Below are positions 560-20,177 of a DNA stretch of 25,374 bases, in pieces. The notes beneath the pieces are model-generated. The model saw nothing but the letters and a program-made list of their open reading frames with translations. It was not told the DNA's origin and made no database searches. The translations under genes were made by a program, and so were the position numbers. This DNA comes from a virus. Taxonomy: Duplodnaviria > Caudoviricetes. The stretch lies in IMG/VR virus record IMGVR_UViG_3300047557_000097, positions 1 to 25,374 of that record. One strand, written 5' to 3'. Positions within the stretch are counted from its first letter, which is position 1. The number at the start of each line of letters is the position of its first letter.

Positions 560-1294
560 CTAGCCTTGTTGTTCCTCTTTAGCCTTATTGGTTCTTTCTT
601 TAATCTCTTGCATAGCCCAATACATTGCATAGTAATCATAATCAACGCTGAATCGCTTCATATGTTTGACTAATGCACCAGTGTGGGCGTGTAGTGGAAT
701 GCCTGCCTTCTGCATTCTTCTAAAGAAAATAATATCTTCACCGATGAAATGGTCATCATTACCATCACCAGTTTCCATAAACATACCCTTACCAGGATTA
801 GCCTCACGCATTTTAGGAACTATTGACTTGTGCATTAAGACAAAACCAAAGCCAGCACAGTCAACCTTAACTACTTGGTTCTCAGGTAGCGGATGCAAGT
901 ATCTAATTTCATACTCGCTAACATTGTCAAACAAGACTGGAAATGGACGCATCAGCGTGCCTTCATTCTCTTTAGATATAAAGTAGACACCGCTAACAAC
1001 AGGACGATTAATCTTGTCTGCTGTCTGCCATAGTAACTTCATAGCCTCTAGGTTTAATACAATGTCTGAGTCAACCCAAAGTAACCAGTCAGTTTTGACA
1101 TTATCTGCCCAATGGTCAAAAAGTACTTGGCGCTGTCTGCCAATCTGATTGCCTTGGACTCTGATGCTGGTATTAATCATCATACCGTTGGCTGGTCCAG
1201 CAATGATTGCTATTGTTAGTCCTTCAGTAAACTTACCATCGGTAGTGCCATTATCGCACCAGCCAATGGCTACAGTGTCATTCTTTCCTACCAT
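560..1294 (-). CDS. GT-A fold (GT2-like) glycosyltransferase
   Basis: DWLLWVDSD (DxD-type motif), CAGFGFVLMHK and GEDIIFF (ED catalytic motif), C-terminal H-x-K. SD AGGGGA. Confidence 0.8.
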   Translation of the reverse strand: MVGKNDTVAIGWCDNGTTDGKFTEGLTIAIIAGPANGMMINTSIRVQGNQIGRQRQVLFDHWADNVKTDWLLWVDSDIVLNLEAMKLLWQTADKINRPVVSGVYFISKENEGTLMRPFPVLFDNVSEYEIRYLHPLPENQVVKVDCAGFGFVLMHKSIVPKMREANPGKGMFMETGDGNDDHFIGEDIIFFRRMQKAGIPLHAHTGALVKHMKRFSVDYDYYAMYWAMQEIKERTNKAKEEQQG

Positions 1295-7598: not shown

Positions 7599-7719
7599 AT
7601 TCCCCATACTTTCCTAGAACTTCTTTTACAGTTCCATCTTTACGAAGTCTTACAACTAGTCCGTTTTTAATTTGTGTGTTATTAAAACCATCGTGTCTTT
7701 TAAGTTGACCTGATGACAT
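7567..7719 (-). CDS. Small basic hypothetical protein (50 aa)
   Basis: Not in the ORF track. Hand translation MSSGQLKRHDGFNNTQIKNGLVVRLRKDGTVKEVLGKYGEYGKQERPKTR; ATG overlaps the upstream TAA (TAATG). Confidence 0.7.
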   Translation of the reverse strand: MSSGQLKRHDGFNNTQIKNGLVVRLRKDGTVKEVLGKYGEYGKQERPKTR

Positions 7720-7898
7720 TATTTTTTCTTTGCTTTACCTTTAACCTTTTTCAGGTTAGGATTTTTTTTCTTTGCAGCAGCAGAGGCTTTACGTGCACCA
7801 CTGGCTAGAATTGCACCAGCAGATTCCATACTAATACCTTGCTTTTTAGCAATAGACTTCTGGGCTGCTTTAAAACCCATACCTTTTTTAGCCTTCAT
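7719..7898 (-). CDS. Small Lys/Ala-rich protein (59 aa)
   Basis: Not in the ORF track. MKAKKGMGFKAAQKSIAKKQGISMESAGAILASGARKASAAAKKKNPNLKKVKGKAKKK (18 Lys); ATGA overlap with the upstream stop. Confidence 0.75.
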   Translation of the reverse strand: MKAKKGMGFKAAQKSIAKKQGISMESAGAILASGARKASAAAKKKNPNLKKVKGKAKKK

Positions 7899-8074
7899 TT
7901 TTGACGACCTTTTTGGTCATAACGGCGTCCTTGTAGAACAGCACCCCAAAATTGTCCAGCCTCAGAATCTGTTCTGCCACGTTCATTCCATTCAGCATAT
8001 TCTTTGGCTGCATTTTCAATATAGCGAGCAATAGTTGATTTGCTTTCGCCTATACGAGTTTTGCCAGGCTTCAC
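7895..8074 (-). CDS. Small hypothetical protein (59 aa)
   Basis: Not in the ORF track. GTG start in a GTGA overlap: MKPGKTRIGESKSTIARYIENAAKEYAEWNERGRTDSEAGQFWGAVLQGRRYDQKGRQK; exactly fills the gap between its neighbours. Confidence 0.7.
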   Translation of the reverse strand: MKPGKTRIGESKSTIARYIENAAKEYAEWNERGRTDSEAGQFWGAVLQGRRYDQKGRQK

Positions 8075-8247
8075 TTCTTTTTGCCCATTTTCTTCATAGA
8101 CTTCTTAGGGGCTGATTTCTTCATACCCTTTTTCATTTCCATTCTTTTTTCAGCCTTAGATTCCATCTTTTCGCCCATTGCATAAGCCTTTGCTGCTTTC
8201 TTTCCTTTGGCTGTATATGGGAATTTCTTTCCGTTTACCATTGGCAT
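8071..8247 (-). CDS. Small Lys/Met-rich protein (58 aa)
   Basis: Not in the ORF track. MPMVNGKKFPYTAKGKKAAKAYAMGEKMESKAEKRMEMKKGMKKSAPKKSMKKMGKKK (20 Lys, 9 Met); SD AGGAG upstream. Confidence 0.75.
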   Translation of the reverse strand: MPMVNGKKFPYTAKGKKAAKAYAMGEKMESKAEKRMEMKKGMKKSAPKKSMKKMGKKK

Positions 8248-8248
8248 T

Positions 8249-8560
8249 TTATGCTCCTATTTCTTTTATTACTGTCGCTGTTTGTTTATTGATATTTTTT
8301 GCTGGTGGCATTTTATTGCCATCATAAGGTTTGCCTAGTACTTCGCTAGCCTTAATTGCCTCTTGAATCTTCGCCATAGAAGTTCCATTTGGCTGAATAC
8401 CTTGAGCCCTAGCGGCTTGATAGGCATTCAATTCTTGGTTAAATGCTTTATTAGGCATAGTCCTACGACTATCTGCATCACCTGTATTCATCTGTAAAGA
8501 AAGTGCTTTACATCCAAAACAATCATCTACTGGTTCTGGATGATATTCCCAATGTTTCAT
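8249..8560 (-). CDS. Hypothetical protein with an N-terminal HxxxH-x6-CxxC putative Zn site
   Basis: 103 aa, MKHWEYHPEPVDDCFGCK; ATGA overlap with the upstream gene. Confidence 0.6.
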   Translation of the reverse strand: MKHWEYHPEPVDDCFGCKALSLQMNTGDADSRRTMPNKAFNQELNAYQAARAQGIQPNGTSMAKIQEAIKASEVLGKPYDGNKMPPAKNINKQTATVIKEIGA

Positions 8561-8903: not shown

Positions 8904-10106
8904 CTATTTAGCAGCGATTGATGAACCAGTCTCAATGCGATACAAAGCCTCGTCACGATAAATTGCAAAGCCGAGTACGCCGTACCAGCCCATTGGGCGG
9001 AAGCGCATCAACTTATCAGTTACGTTACCGATAACAATGTGTGGTTCCTCTGCAACGGCTTCTGCCATTGCTTGTGAACCGCAAAGGATTGTGTCAAATA
9101 CACGGGTTACTGGGGTTACAGTTACAGTTGTTGTAGCAGTAACTGGAGCAGTATGTGCAACAGTTACAGTAATTGTAGTTGTATCTCCAGTGGTTGAAAT
9201 TGCACCAATTTTTGCAGTTGATGCAATACCTGTTCCAGAAATCTTATCGCCAACTTCTGCACGAGAAGCAATAACGGAAGATGAAGCAACACCAAGGGTG
9301 AAGCCTGCTGAAGCACCAGCAACAGTTACTGCTGTTGTGGTTAGAGCAGTCTGGTCAGCACCTGACTTAGAGTTAGCAAGACGTGAAGACTCTACGAAGA
9401 ATGCTCCTTCGTAATCTCCAATTTCTCCTGCCCAAATCTTGTCAACGTTGCCAGGTGTTTGTGCGTGAACAAAGTTCCAGCCCAAGTTACCTGACTCGGC
9501 ACGAAGGTCGTGTGAAACTTCTGGGTGGATACCACACCAGTAGTAAGAACCACGGCGAGCCTTAGCCTTGTTGGCACGTAACTTAGCAACAGCCTTGCGG
9601 ATGTCTGCTGAGTCAATTGTGTCAGAAGCAGTAAGAGTTGCTGTTGAAGTACGGCTTCCACCGTATAGAACATTTGAACCTGCGCCAAGAGTATTCATTG
9701 CAACAGTGTCAATAGAATCAGCAAGGTTGTATGCAATAATATTTGCAATTGCTGGGTCTACGTCTGCCAATGAGAATAACTCAAGAGCACGGGTTACTAG
9801 TACTGCGTTACCATACTCATTAAGAGTAATTGTTACAGATGTTGGTGTTGAAAGAGATACTGCATCTGGGTCAGTTGTCTCAGTTAGTGCGGTAGTTGCT
9901 TGGTCTAAATCTACATACTTTTGTAGTACGACTGTTGCTCCTGGGAAAGCCTGCTTAGCAGGACGCTTATCTGCGACTGAACGAATTAATGGTTCAGAGC
10001 GAAGCGCAAATTCCAGAAGGCGGTCATACGCCTTTTGTACTAGACCAGCACCACCAACGGAACCTCCAAGAGAGGTACTTGCGGTTGATGTATAGGCATT
10101 AGCCAT
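8904..10106 (-). CDS. Major capsid protein (HK97 fold, N4-gp56-family-like)
   Basis: 400 aa after the scaffold gene; strongest SD in the window (GGAGGTGA); TLNEYGNA, IHP.V..DLR, GEIG.YEG..FVES and DKLMRFRPMGWYG motifs. Confidence 0.9.
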   Translation of the reverse strand: MANAYTSTASTSLGGSVGGAGLVQKAYDRLLEFALRSEPLIRSVADKRPAKQAFPGATVVLQKYVDLDQATTALTETTDPDAVSLSTPTSVTITLNEYGNAVLVTRALELFSLADVDPAIANIIAYNLADSIDTVAMNTLGAGSNVLYGGSRTSTATLTASDTIDSADIRKAVAKLRANKAKARRGSYYWCGIHPEVSHDLRAESGNLGWNFVHAQTPGNVDKIWAGEIGDYEGAFFVESSRLANSKSGADQTALTTTAVTVAGASAGFTLGVASSSVIASRAEVGDKISGTGIASTAKIGAISTTGDTTTITVTVAHTAPVTATTTVTVTPVTRVFDTILCGSQAMAEAVAEEPHIVIGNVTDKLMRFRPMGWYGVLGFAIYRDEALYRIETGSSIAAK

Positions 10107-10135
10107 TTTGCGTCACCTCCAGTGACTATGAACTG

Positions 10136-10606
10136 TTAGGAATTGCGTAGAAGATTTAATAAATCATCCATTGAATCCACAGAATCAATCTGTCTTTCAA
10201 TGTCTACGGCTTTGTCTGGAGCAATTCCGCCTTGAGTTACAATATCTTGCTGACGTAATGCAGCAAGGTCTTTCTGCTTTTCTTCAACCTCTGATTGTGG
10301 ATTGTAGCCAATTAAATCTCCGTTATCACGAAGCCAAGAATCAATAGATTCTTCAGTAGCATCATTCACATCTTTAAGTATTAGACGAGCAGCCTTAGCG
10401 TTTACTCCCTTTTTTGCTAGGACTTCCGTGACGGTTCTTTCCTTACGTTCCTTGAGGAATCCTTCAAGTTGTTCGGATAGTTCTTTGATACGCTTTTCGT
10501 CAGCACGTTTGGCTTTTCTTAGTTTCTTAACTAAATCATCGCCAGTTAATTGCTGCTCTTGTGTATCTTGTTCGTCTTCGTCTTCATCCCAGTAGTTGTT
10601 GCTCAT
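10136..10606 (-). CDS. Capsid scaffolding protein
   Basis: Acidic N-terminus then a charged coiled coil (DLVKKLRKAKRADEKRIKEL), directly upstream of the capsid gene. Start ATG 10606 behind AAAGGGTGG. Confidence 0.75.
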   Translation of the reverse strand: MSNNYWDEDEDEQDTQEQQLTGDDLVKKLRKAKRADEKRIKELSEQLEGFLKERKERTVTEVLAKKGVNAKAARLILKDVNDATEESIDSWLRDNGDLIGYNPQSEVEEKQKDLAALRQQDIVTQGGIAPDKAVDIERQIDSVDSMDDLLNLLRNS

Positions 10607-10727
10607 AGCAACCACCCTTTCTATTCGTTGTTAGTCGCAAGCCTCAGTTCTATCCAGGGGTAGATAGGCTGGCTCTTGCTACCAGTCTTATACACCGTGT
10701 GGGGCTGGTCGGTCCACATCGGGATTC
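10607..10727 (-). promoter_or_regulatory. Candidate structured cis-regulatory RNA (pseudoknot plus long hairpin) upstream of the scaffold gene
   Basis: Largest intergenic gap inside the operon and GC-richer than its flanks; four helices plus a pseudoknot can be drawn by eye (see findings). Confidence 0.6.
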
Positions 10728-12182
10728 TTATATTGCTCCGCCTATATTTCTTGTAAGCGAAGTTCTACCTAGTCCTGAAGACCCGCTAAATGCAGCGGTC
10801 TCAAGTTGAGATAGTTGATTACGGGCACGTTTTGCAGATGCAAGCCCTTTAAATTCTTCTTGCTCGGCTGTTGTTTGATTGTAATTAATACCAGCCTGCT
10901 TATATATATTGCTTAGTAATTCAGTTCTAGGCAATATGTTTGCTATGTTTTCATAACCTTGACGGGCTCTTGCTAAATCTACGCCGTATCTTTGTAGTTC
11001 AGAAATTCTAGAAAGGTCAGATTGTAAACCATATTGTGCAGCAGTTGCACCAATTTCTGCAGTTGCTACTTTAGTTTCTAGTTCTGGTAATGTTTCTGTT
11101 GGAGATAAGAAATAAGCAACAATATCTGAATTAGTAATTGTTGGATAATATGTTCTTAATTGACCTAAAACTGCTGGATTAGTATTAGATAAACGATTAA
11201 CGGCTATACCAACACGACTACCTAATTCAGTATTAGATATGTCATTACCAATCAATGTAGCAAACTGTGCACGATTAGCCAGTCTTTGCTGACCATATCT
11301 TCTTAAAGTTTCTGAATAATCTTTTTCTTGTGCTAGATATTCTGCTTCAGATAAAACATTTAAACCTGCTTTTCTACGGGTTTCATTACCAGCAAATCTT
11401 GCTTTATATGATGGTAGATTGCGTAATTCAATTACTAATTGATTAGCACCCATTCTTGGGTTAACTAAACCAGTTTTAATATAGTTTAATATTTCAGTTA
11501 ATTCTGCTTCACTAAAACCATAACTACGCATTGTTTGCTCAACAAGAGAATACGCATCACGTTTTTCCTGAGATACATTATCTGTACCAGCACCAGGGCT
11601 AGAGCCAGGAGCAGAAGTACCTACAAATTTACCAGTGGCATCATATTGTCCACCTTCAACTTTATTACCTTGTGCATCAAATCCACCAACTGCAGGTGTA
11701 TAAGAAATACCATATTGACCATATTGACTTGTTATTTTTTTATAAGCATCTGCTTCTGAAATGCCTTGTGCAACAAGTTCAGCAATTTGTTTTTTCTGTA
11801 AAATTTCTGCCATAGCAGCAGTATTAACACTGCCATCTGGTTTAGTAACTTGTTTTTGTTCAGCAGCAGATAATTGCCCAGACAAAGGTGTGTCATTAAA
11901 ATAACCTTGTGCATTAATGCCACCACGAGAAGCAATATATTCTGGAGTCATACCTATTGCTCTAGCCTCTGCTTCTTTAGCAGCATTGCGTTCTGTACCA
12001 GTAATAGTTAATCCAGAAGATGGAGATACCATACCAATGCTAGTTGCAGCAGGTGGTCTACCTGTTGTTGGGTCTACACCAGTATAAGTTTTTCCATCAA
12101 TAGTTACTGTTTTAGTTTGCGCTCCGTATTGATTGGCTGCATTGTAGTTTCTTTCCCAGTTTTGATTATCTAAATAACCCAT
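10728..12182 (-). CDS. Putative internal virion / ejection protein (484 aa)
   Basis: Gly/Thr-rich N-terminus and helical C-terminal domain (YKARFAGNETR.K.GL..LSEAEYL); function inferred from context. Confidence 0.5.
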   Translation of the reverse strand: MGYLDNQNWERNYNAANQYGAQTKTVTIDGKTYTGVDPTTGRPPAATSIGMVSPSSGLTITGTERNAAKEAEARAIGMTPEYIASRGGINAQGYFNDTPLSGQLSAAEQKQVTKPDGSVNTAAMAEILQKKQIAELVAQGISEADAYKKITSQYGQYGISYTPAVGGFDAQGNKVEGGQYDATGKFVGTSAPGSSPGAGTDNVSQEKRDAYSLVEQTMRSYGFSEAELTEILNYIKTGLVNPRMGANQLVIELRNLPSYKARFAGNETRRKAGLNVLSEAEYLAQEKDYSETLRRYGQQRLANRAQFATLIGNDISNTELGSRVGIAVNRLSNTNPAVLGQLRTYYPTITNSDIVAYFLSPTETLPELETKVATAEIGATAAQYGLQSDLSRISELQRYGVDLARARQGYENIANILPRTELLSNIYKQAGINYNQTTAEQEEFKGLASAKRARNQLSQLETAAFSGSSGLGRTSLTRNIGGAI

Positions 12183-19607: not shown

Positions 19608-20177
19608 CTACTTAGTAAATTGCGTTTTAACATTTGCAGTTCCACCACACCATACGTTGTATTGAATAGCAAGATTAATTGCTTTCTTTGCTGCACTGGC
19701 TGCTTTTGTGTGAGTTTTTAAACTATCTTCCATTGCTGCTACTGCACCTAATGCAATAGTTCCGCCACTACCAATTGCGTAAATACCTTTATCATCTCGC
19801 ATAAAACCGTAGTCATCGCTAATCTGATATATCTTTCCGTTAAAACAAAGTAGCGCATCCCATCCAGCATCATCATCTTTTTTGTTTGCTGGATTAGGGT
19901 CATACCCTTGCTCTGTAAGAATTTGTCTTATAGACGGAAGAACTCTTACTATCATAAATCTATCTGGGTCTTGCGTCTTAATTAATTTTGGTGGTTGCCA
20001 TAAATAATTAAGGATATCGCCAGCAGTTGCATCACCTGCAACGGCTAACATATATTCGCCAATTTTATTTATCTTGTCATATCCCTTAGCAACGTAAGGT
20101 CTATCTGTATATGTAGTTACAGAATCGGCTGCTAACACAGCCCATCCTTTTCCTTGTATGCCAACTATTGCTGTCAT
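19608..20177 (-). CDS. Ntn-hydrolase peptidase, HslV / proteasome-beta family
   Basis: Thr directly after the initiator Met (MTAIVGI), LAADS, Lys in YDKI, VAGD, YAIGSGG..ALG, CGG: the HslV/proteasome-beta signature set. Confidence 0.8.
   Translation of the reverse strand: MTAIVGIQGKGWAVLAADSVTTYTDRPYVAKGYDKINKIGEYMLAVAGDATAGDILNYLWQPPKLIKTQDPDRFMIVRVLPSIRQILTEQGYDPNPANKKDDDAGWDALLCFNGKIYQISDDYGFMRDDKGIYAIGSGGTIALGAVAAMEDSLKTHTKAASAAKKAINLAIQYNVWCGGTANVKTQFTK

What the first reader, a model, noticed from the sequence alone, without database searches (positions are those of the whole stretch)
10607..10727. Pseudoknotted, riboswitch-like RNA leader upstream of the scaffold and capsid genes
Seen in sequence: the mRNA reads CCGAUGUGG-ACCGACCAGCC-CCACACGG-UGUAUAAGA-CUGGU-A-GCAAG-AGC-CAG-C-CUAUCUA-CCCC-UGGAUAG-AA-CUG-AGG-CUUGC-GACUAACAACGAAUAGAAAGGGUGGUUGCU-AUG. 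P1 is 8 bp with a bulged A (10722-10714 / 10702-10695). Its loop ACCAG (10709-10705) is complementary to CUGGU (10685-10681), giving an H-type pseudoknot. A three-segment hairpin follows (GCAAG/CUUGC, CAG/CUG, CUAUCUA/UGGAUAG with a U-G wobble that favours the coding strand). Its CCCC loop region (ACCC or CCCU) is complementary to the scaffold SD (AGGG / GGGU), so a second pseudoknot could hide the ribosome-binding site. Most other junctions in this operon are overlaps or short spacers, so a 121-nt folded gap is probably under selection. Established: P22 scaffolding protein represses its own synthesis post-transcriptionally. Inference: an RNA switch that tunes scaffold:capsid stoichiometry; I cannot match it to a named motif.
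Basis: partly seen in the sequence, partly recalled or inferred. Interest (0 to 1): 0.8.

Follow-up and report, generated by a model that had tools for sequence, protein, structure and literature searches.

The report
Double-pseudoknot leader before phage scaffold gene
The 121-base gap in front of this phage's likely head-scaffold gene holds a conserved knotted RNA fold, kept by matched mutations from lake phages to cultured Streptomyces phages and absent from the Rfam library, whose tip can pair with the gene's ribosome-binding site and likely controls how much scaffold protein is made.

Summary
The single sequence folds no better than shuffles, but homologs settle it.

An H-type pseudoknot and a roughly 20-step hairpin with an AGC/NGG internal loop and a CCCY tip are conserved with compensatory changes. 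They occur in freshwater actinophages (including cultured Planktophila phage E7) and Streptomyces cluster BF phages. A model trained only on Streptomyces-type leaders finds this one (43.8 bits, single copy). Complete copies sit before the same scaffold-like gene family; none was found in cellular genomes; Rfam has no match.

The tip/Shine-Dalgarno pairing has register CCCU/AGGG. It covaries (106 of 111 Watson-Crick at the variable pair) but rests on few independent changes.

Added here: where a tRNA lies upstream, it ends within 3 nt of the first helix (58 of 59 loci, 12 common tRNA types), so tRNA trimming would create the mRNA 5' end at the knot.

Best reading (0.45): a translational operator closed by unassembled scaffold protein. 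Binding, switching and expression are untested. This scan found what appears to be the same motif before on other DNA (e1-6097735 and similar notes).

The parts
10728..12182 (-). Upstream 484-aa ORF (phrog_8424, unknown function); its stop UAA ends just before the leader
10722..10727 (-). 5' flank GAAUCC; A(A/U)UCC is present in 139 of 139 distinct freshwater leaders; its last one or two C's begin P1. Candidate processing site (inferred). In Streptomyces-type phages a tRNA 3' end stands here
10693..10723 (-). P1 (stem 1 of the H-type pseudoknot): 10723-10714 with 10702-10693, 11-nt loop (10-11 nt in 106 of 111)
10681..10709 (-). S2 pseudoknot helix ACCAG 10709-10705 / CUGGU 10685-10681; possible extra C10704-G10687 pair with A10686 bulged; linker GUA-N-AG at 10693-10687
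10637..10679 (-). P3 long hairpin: GCAAG/CUUGC, 3x3 internal loop AGC/AGG (AGC/NGG in 99 of 111), CAG/CUG, CUAUCUA/UGGAUAG; strand length 18-21 nt in 80% of homologs
10656..10660 (-). Apical loop CCCC plus U; CCCU (10659-10656) is complementary to the SD bases AGGG (second pseudoknot, supported by covariation, not probed)
10613..10618 (-). Shine-Dalgarno-like AGGGUG of the scaffold-like gene
   Evidence: sequence
10604..10612 (-). GUUGCUAUG including the start codon; can form an alternative 7-bp helix with 10682-10676 in the freshwater clade only; no covariation support
10136..10606 (-). 156-aa putative head scaffolding protein (phrog_7813): acidic disordered N-terminus, predicted 45-residue helix, invariant Arg30 and Gly67
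8904..10106 (-). Major capsid protein (phrog_1357, E 2.5e-80), with its own SD-like site in a 29-nt spacer

Best explanation
The gap is a conserved two-domain mRNA leader that likely works as a feedback operator: unassembled scaffold protein would bind the long hairpin and lock its CCCY tip onto the scaffold gene's ribosome-binding site, and the 5' pseudoknot would cap a processed end of the scaffold-capsid mRNA. Shown by comparison: both domains, their covariation, the tie to one gene family, and the 5' boundary at tRNA ends in relatives. Supported but on few independent events: the tip/SD pairing. Inferred: the 3-5 bp tip/SD helix is too weak, and in many homologs the linker too short (6-12 nt against a rod of about 20 steps), to be closed without help, so a binding partner and a bend at the purine-rich internal loop are needed. 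Also inferred: that the partner is the scaffold, that binding to coat protein titrates it away, and that RNase cleavage or tRNA trimming makes the 5' end.
For: Covariation in P1, S2 and P3. On a quick scaffold-protein tree, S2 positions changed 6, 7 and 10 times with a matching count on the partner side; 5, 5 and 6 independent pairs all went the same way. G-U pairs outnumber A-C mismatches 234 to 7, which points to the coding strand as RNA (counted on folds of that strand, so partly built in). Tip/SD: loop position 4 vs SD base is C-G 88, U-A 18, U-G 2, C-A 3 of 111; next position U->A 26 of 30 and A->U 31 of 37; 0 of 5000 permutations reach the observed pairing. A protein-blind search for the first knot alone gave 81 viral loci; 73 passed the full test and 5 are clear chance hits by eye. 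All 82 downstream proteins aligned match phrog_7813. Scaffold identity: position before the capsid gene, DUF4355 in 15 of 82 members below cutoff (best E 8e-5), PHROG scaffold families in 12, 8 and 3 members, Atlas neighbours Phage_scaffold 0.91 and DUF4355 0.90. A tRNA ends within -2..+3 nt of P1 in 58 of 59 loci that have an upstream tRNA call, against 200 of 300 tRNA-tRNA spacers. Precedents: P22 scaffold N-terminus implicated in translational autoregulation (bioRxiv 10.1101/2022.12.13.520362, one passage); T4 gene 32 mRNA is cut by RNase E at -71, next to its operator pseudoknot at -67 (PMC3014915 section 24).
Against: No evidence here that the scaffold binds RNA. It is acidic overall, its model is modest (pLDDT 69, pTM 0.33) and has no PDB match. 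The tip/SD covariation is weak once relatedness is counted. Position 4 changed only 3 times, giving 2 independent pairs after dropping 6 rows with ambiguous register or SD pick; with all rows, 2 of 4 pairs agree and 2 show no change. Position 5 gave 4.8 same, 0.2 opposite and 4.0 unchanged of 9 pairs, median p 0.06. When position 5 is G it faces A in 31 of 43 cases. In M. smegmatis, 5' UTR structure did not confer or correlate with mRNA stability (PMC11728522, abstract and outline), which counts against the capping role. tRNA abutment may partly be genome compaction. Several homologs have lost the AGC/NGG loop (12 of 111) while Arg30 is invariant.
Confidence: 0.45

Rival explanations
1. A constitutive element with no switch: the knot protects the processed 5' end and the tip/SD contact sets a fixed, reduced initiation rate for the scaffold gene relative to the capsid gene.
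For: Fixed 5' boundary; constant P3 length; the capsid gene has its own SD-like site; no partner is needed.
Against: A fixed rate could be set by a weaker SD alone. It does not explain a conserved AGC/NGG loop (99 of 111). See also PMC11728522.
Confidence: 0.25
2. A switch closed by another ligand: coat protein, another phage or host protein, or a small molecule or ion bound at the junction of the first knot (C, GUA, AG).
For: H-type knots with SD-pairing loops are typical of several riboswitch classes (recalled). A few junction nucleotides are nearly invariant.
Against: Strict tie to one structural gene; no full motif among 120 cellular-genome pattern hits; no Rfam riboswitch hit. The invariant G's can be explained as C-G pairs; parser-missed loci vary at the U, A and first A of these elements.
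Confidence: 0.17
3. The first knot is a new small self-cleaving ribozyme that cuts at its 5' edge, releasing the last tRNA and the scaffold-capsid mRNA, as theta ribozymes are proposed to do.
For: It starts at tRNA 3' ends whatever the tRNA and after tmRNA-like ends in two loci; theta ribozymes give a precedent for the position (PMC10879173, passages).
Against: No nested HDV topology: P1 encloses only 10-11 nt. Few invariant unpaired bases. The freshwater clade has no tRNA there. It does not explain P3 or the SD contact.
Confidence: 0.07
4. The conservation acts at DNA level (late promoter or protein-binding site), or the RNA acts in trans, for example as a packaging RNA or small RNA.
For: UAGAAU-like hexamers precede P1 in many freshwater leaders.
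Against: About a third of those leaders lack the TANNNT pattern and a start 6-7 nt downstream would cut into covarying P1; no promoter match near the gap; G-U asymmetry; the fixed position against the SD and the loop/SD covariation point to cis action.
Confidence: 0.06

Closest known systems
GP20-a (RF02991) and GP20-b (RF03003) motifs, and six further candidate RNAs upstream of GP20 genes (PMC10690425, section 2.5 read)
   Same: Conserved structured RNAs directly upstream of a phage gene whose family (Phage_scaffold PF06810, recalled as the former Phage_GP20) the Atlas places near this protein; presumed cis-regulatory, untested.
   Different: No Rfam match in the window or in 20 diverse homolog loci. 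The hosts listed there are gut, soil and wastewater bacteria such as Veillonella, Lachnoclostridium and Lysinibacillus, not Actinomycetota. I did not see their structures.
T4/T2/RB69 gene 32 translational operator (PMC3014915, section 24 read)
   Same: Phage leader with an H-type pseudoknot just downstream of a processing site, upstream of an autogenously repressed gene.
   Different: There the knot is followed by unstructured A+U-rich RNA that a ssDNA-binding protein coats. Here a long conserved hairpin follows and its tip can pair with the SD; the gene is a scaffold-like protein; autoregulation is unproven.
P22 scaffolding protein autoregulation (one passage of bioRxiv 10.1101/2022.12.13.520362; Wyckoff and Casjens 1985 seen only as a reference entry)
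   Same: A scaffold protein limiting its own translation is the function proposed here.
   Different: No sequence relation was tested or found; that the P22 RNA target is undefined is recalled, not checked.
Theta (HDV-like) ribozymes (PMC10879173, passages)
   Same: Pseudoknotted phage RNA that begins at a tRNA 3' end.
   Different: Simple H-type knot instead of a nested double pseudoknot; no J4/2 cytosine position; tied to an SD and a scaffold gene.

Membership tests
GP20-a / GP20-b RNA motifs | Match to the Rfam covariance models | tested here: not met
   E up to 10; 20 homolog loci, E up to 1
GP20-a / GP20-b RNA motifs | Directly upstream of a GP20 / Phage_scaffold gene | tested here: inconclusive
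   No PF06810 hit among the 25 families shown by hmmscan; Atlas neighbour at 0.91 with 141 of 256 features
Fremin 2023 candidate viral RNAs | Sequence present in the published alignments | not testable with these tools
   Zip files with alignments not readable; 0 hits in the readable tables
T4 gene 32-type operator | H-type pseudoknot 5' of the start site | tested here: met
T4 gene 32-type operator | Unstructured A+U-rich tract from knot to RBS; downstream gene an Ssb | tested here: not met
   Conserved hairpin P3 instead; gene is phrog_7813
T4 gene 32-type operator / P22-type autoregulation | Gene product binds the leader and represses translation | not testable with these tools
   Needs binding and reporter assays
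HDV-like / theta ribozymes | Nested double pseudoknot with P2, P3 and L3 inside P1, and a catalytic C in J4/2 | tested here: not met
   P1 loop is 10-11 nt in 106 of 111; feature from PMC10879173 passages and recall of the topology
HDV-like / theta ribozymes | 5' end abuts a tRNA 3' end | tested here: met
   58 of 59 loci with an upstream tRNA; not in the window itself
Metabolite riboswitches (e.g. preQ1) | Match to a known aptamer family | tested here: not met
   Only a 12.3-bit PreQ1 chance hit inside the ORF, E 9.7
Metabolite riboswitches (e.g. preQ1) | Occurrence upstream of metabolic or transport genes in cells | tested here: not met
   One subtype pattern only; 0 of 120 genome hits with the full motif
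Head scaffolding proteins (DUF4355 / Gp46-like) | Profile match above curated cutoff | tested here: inconclusive
   Window protein 15.8 bits vs cutoff 25.4; 15 of 82 members match, best E 8e-5

The most novel reading that the evidence does not exclude
A phage-specific two-knot RNA switch, spanning Actinomycetota podophages, in which tRNA maturation or RNase cleavage defines the capsid mRNA's 5' end at the first knot and free scaffold protein bends a 20-step hairpin so that its tip captures the Shine-Dalgarno sequence: the first defined RNA target for scaffold autoregulation.
Probability: 0.3. Interest if true: 0.8.

Novelty: new variant of a known kind. Interest (0 to 1): 0.58.

Why it matters
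Scaffold autoregulation is reported for P22, and candidate RNAs upstream of scaffold-like GP20 genes exist, but none that I could find links a defined structure to the ribosome-binding site. This leader gives a concrete, covariation-backed operator with designed-in compensatory tests. It is present in cultured phages of a tractable host (Manuel on Streptomyces lividans) and in a cultured phage of 'Ca. Planktophila', so the question of how phages balance head proteins becomes directly testable. Even if it is not a switch, it is an uncatalogued RNA family in an abundant phage group (about 1200 IMG/VR stretches hold a close relative of the gene).

Tried and rejected
1. RNA 5' end from metatranscriptomes. 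Contigs of four RNA runs cover 8917-10701 or parts of it and none of the upstream gene, but two probable-DNA runs stop at the same place (10697, 10701). The hint is uncontrolled and not used. Contigs cannot show strand or level.
2. Stop-codon readthrough into the scaffold: the gap is out of frame, a second stop follows 26 codons on, and gap length varies.
3. Translational coupling through a hairpin over the capsid SD: present in the window, but SD pairing was above shuffles in only 38 of 75 homologs (of 111; 36 could not be parsed).
4. Alternative helix over the start codon: -6.0 vs -2.7 kcal/mol for letter shuffles in 32 freshwater leaders, absent in 79 others, no covariation (78 of 300 permutations as good). 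Inconclusive.
5. Promoter or terminator at the gap: none.
6. Distant capsid relatives (Bacillus phage Pony, Bacteroides phage BS162P1, ctQWt234): no motif.
7. Structure of the scaffold: no PDB match by profile or fold. The viral fold library could not be searched.
8. Literature: ten searches; none listed a description of this RNA. The library lacks most subscription papers. Supplements of PMC5737381 and the alignment files of PMC10690425 could not be read, so the motif may be among their unnamed candidates.
9. The careful tree did not finish; the quick tree of 106 rows was used (four short proteins and the misparsed L272 left out of 111).

Full report
Setting. The window is a head and tail operon on the - strand: terminase, portal, an HslV-like peptidase, large unknown proteins, the 121-nt gap, a 156-aa ORF and the major capsid protein. 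The nearest named relatives by capsid are OX376640/OX376641 (76% identity) and Streptomyces cluster BF phages, subfamily Beephvirinae (52-55%). OX376640 is titled LanE43-AprE7, which matches Planktophila phage LanE43AprE7, cultured on 'Ca. Planktophila' (PMC10202952, passages). It carries the leader at 82.5% identity. The host of the window's phage is therefore probably a freshwater actinobacterium (inference).

Observation. Alone, the sequence folds like its shuffles (z = -0.09), and Rfam has nothing at the locus.

Conservation. Eighty loci found by the protein gave 61 distinct leaders, 59 complete; all keep the knot, 8 of them as AUCGG/CCGA instead of ACCAG/CUGG. The BF phages have the same layout in the roughly 115-nt gap between their last tRNA and the gene before the capsid, with S2 as GCUGG/CCAGC or GUCAG/CUGAC. 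Counts on two MAFFT alignments show strong covariation: 99.0% paired and 43 two-sided cells in 22 freshwater rows; 94.6% and 86 cells in 45 Streptomyces-type rows; slid controls are at 24-41%. These rows had passed a parser that demands S2 pairing, but 12 parser-missed loci keep it as well. On a quick protein tree the three variable S2 pairs changed 6, 7 and 10 times, with matching counts on both sides (55 rows). A covariance model built only from Streptomyces-type rows, with five pairs specified, finds the window's leader at 43.8 bits (E about 2e-10, rough calibration), once in the window and once in Manuel, and not in three distant phages. Across 111 non-redundant motifs the P1 loop is 10-11 nt in 106, P3 is 18-21 nt per strand in 80%, and the internal loop is AGC/NGG in 99.

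Gene link. A search for the first knot alone, blind to proteins, gave 81 viral loci. 73 passed the test for P1, CCCY and SD; by eye three more are variants or truncated and five are chance. All 82 downstream proteins I aligned match phrog_7813. The same pattern gave 120 hits in cellular genomes: 45 passed a loose P1 test, 5 also the CCCY/SD test, and none of those 5 had the internal loop. The model scored at most 25.7 bits on 100 of the 120. This covers one subtype only. The protein is probably the scaffold: it precedes the capsid gene, has an acidic unstructured start and a long helix, and shows weak, repeated similarity to DUF4355 and PHROG scaffold families. No match reaches a curated cutoff.

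Second knot. With the loop register set without reference to the SD, loop position 4 faces the base before the SD's GG as C-G in 88, U-A in 18, U-G in 2 and C-A in 3 of 111. At the next position U faces A in 26 of 30 and A faces U in 31 of 37, but G faces A in 31 of 43. No permutation of 5000 reached the observed pairing. On the tree the support is thinner. Position 4 changed three times on each side (two independent pairs after dropping L017, L032, L261, L305, L321 and L348; 2 of 4 agree with all rows kept). Position 5 gave 4.8 same, 0.2 opposite and 4.0 unchanged, median p 0.06, against 2.3/1.2/4.5 for a control column. I put the contact at about 75% likely. It is only 3-5 bp, needs the weak closing pairs of the hairpin to open, and the linker is as short as 6-7 nt against a rod of about 20 steps. 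From this I infer that it closes only with help and with a bend at the internal loop.

5' boundary. Among 79 non-freshwater motifs, 59 have an upstream tRNA call and 58 of these end within -2..+3 nt of P1. The last tRNA is any of 12 common types, plus four odd calls, whereas 200 of 300 tRNA-tRNA spacers are that short. Two more loci have a short tmRNA-like match in that place. If the last tRNA is released by a cut at its 3' end, the scaffold-capsid mRNA starts at P1 (inference). Freshwater leaders have A(A/U)UCC there in 139 of 139; mycobacterial RNase E prefers to cut before C (PMC10641625, passages), which fits but proves nothing. T4 gene 32 offers the same geometry, a cut at -71 and a knot at -67. 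Against a stabilising role, 5' structure did not stabilise mRNA in M. smegmatis (PMC11728522, abstract). Read data could not test this.

Mechanism. I commit to a scaffold-closed translational operator (0.45), over a constitutive rate-setting and end-protecting element (0.25), another ligand (0.17), a ribozyme (0.07) and a DNA-level or trans role (0.06). The structure and its context are shown; every step involving a ligand is inferred from the gene link and from the P22 and T4 precedents.

Novelty. Not in Rfam 15 and not found in ten literature searches of an open-access library; key supplements were unreadable. It belongs to a known kind, structured leaders of phage genes, with an architecture I could not match to any family. 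After forming this reading I found that the scan had noted what appears to be the same motif on other genomes; those notes are unchecked and add no support.

Noticed in passing
L311:942-1023 (-) and L364:809-890 (+): An 82-nt match to tmRNA (RF00023, about 50 bits, above gathering) ends just before the motif; perhaps a lone tRNA-like domain or a piece of a two-piece tmRNA in these phages.
   Followed up: no
window 7607-8249 (-): The apparent 640-nt gap holds several short, very lysine-rich ORFs under 60 aa; basic small proteins of unknown role.
   Followed up: no
window 8904-10106 (-), about residues 249-328: The capsid protein has an insert of about 80 aa, rich in Thr/Val/Ala, that the Streptomyces BF capsids lack.
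   Followed up: no
L247/L341, L304, L355, L360; L293: Extra hairpins inserted between the two domains or in the linker to the SD, which suggests that these joints tolerate insertions; L293 has an insertion after the apical hairpin and no SD or ORF was parsed.
   Followed up: partly
111 non-redundant motifs: Two layouts: junction of at most 2 nt with a long linker (median 17 nt, 56 motifs) or a longer junction with a short linker (median 9 nt, 55 motifs); largely follows the tree.
   Followed up: partly
window 10107-10135 (-): Small hairpin GUCAC-UGGAG-GUGAC around the capsid SD, shared by close freshwater relatives; not enriched across all homologs.
   Followed up: yes
window 19608-20177 (-) and 560-1294 (-): An HslV/proteasome-like peptidase next to the portal gene and a glycosyltransferase among the tail genes.
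   Followed up: no
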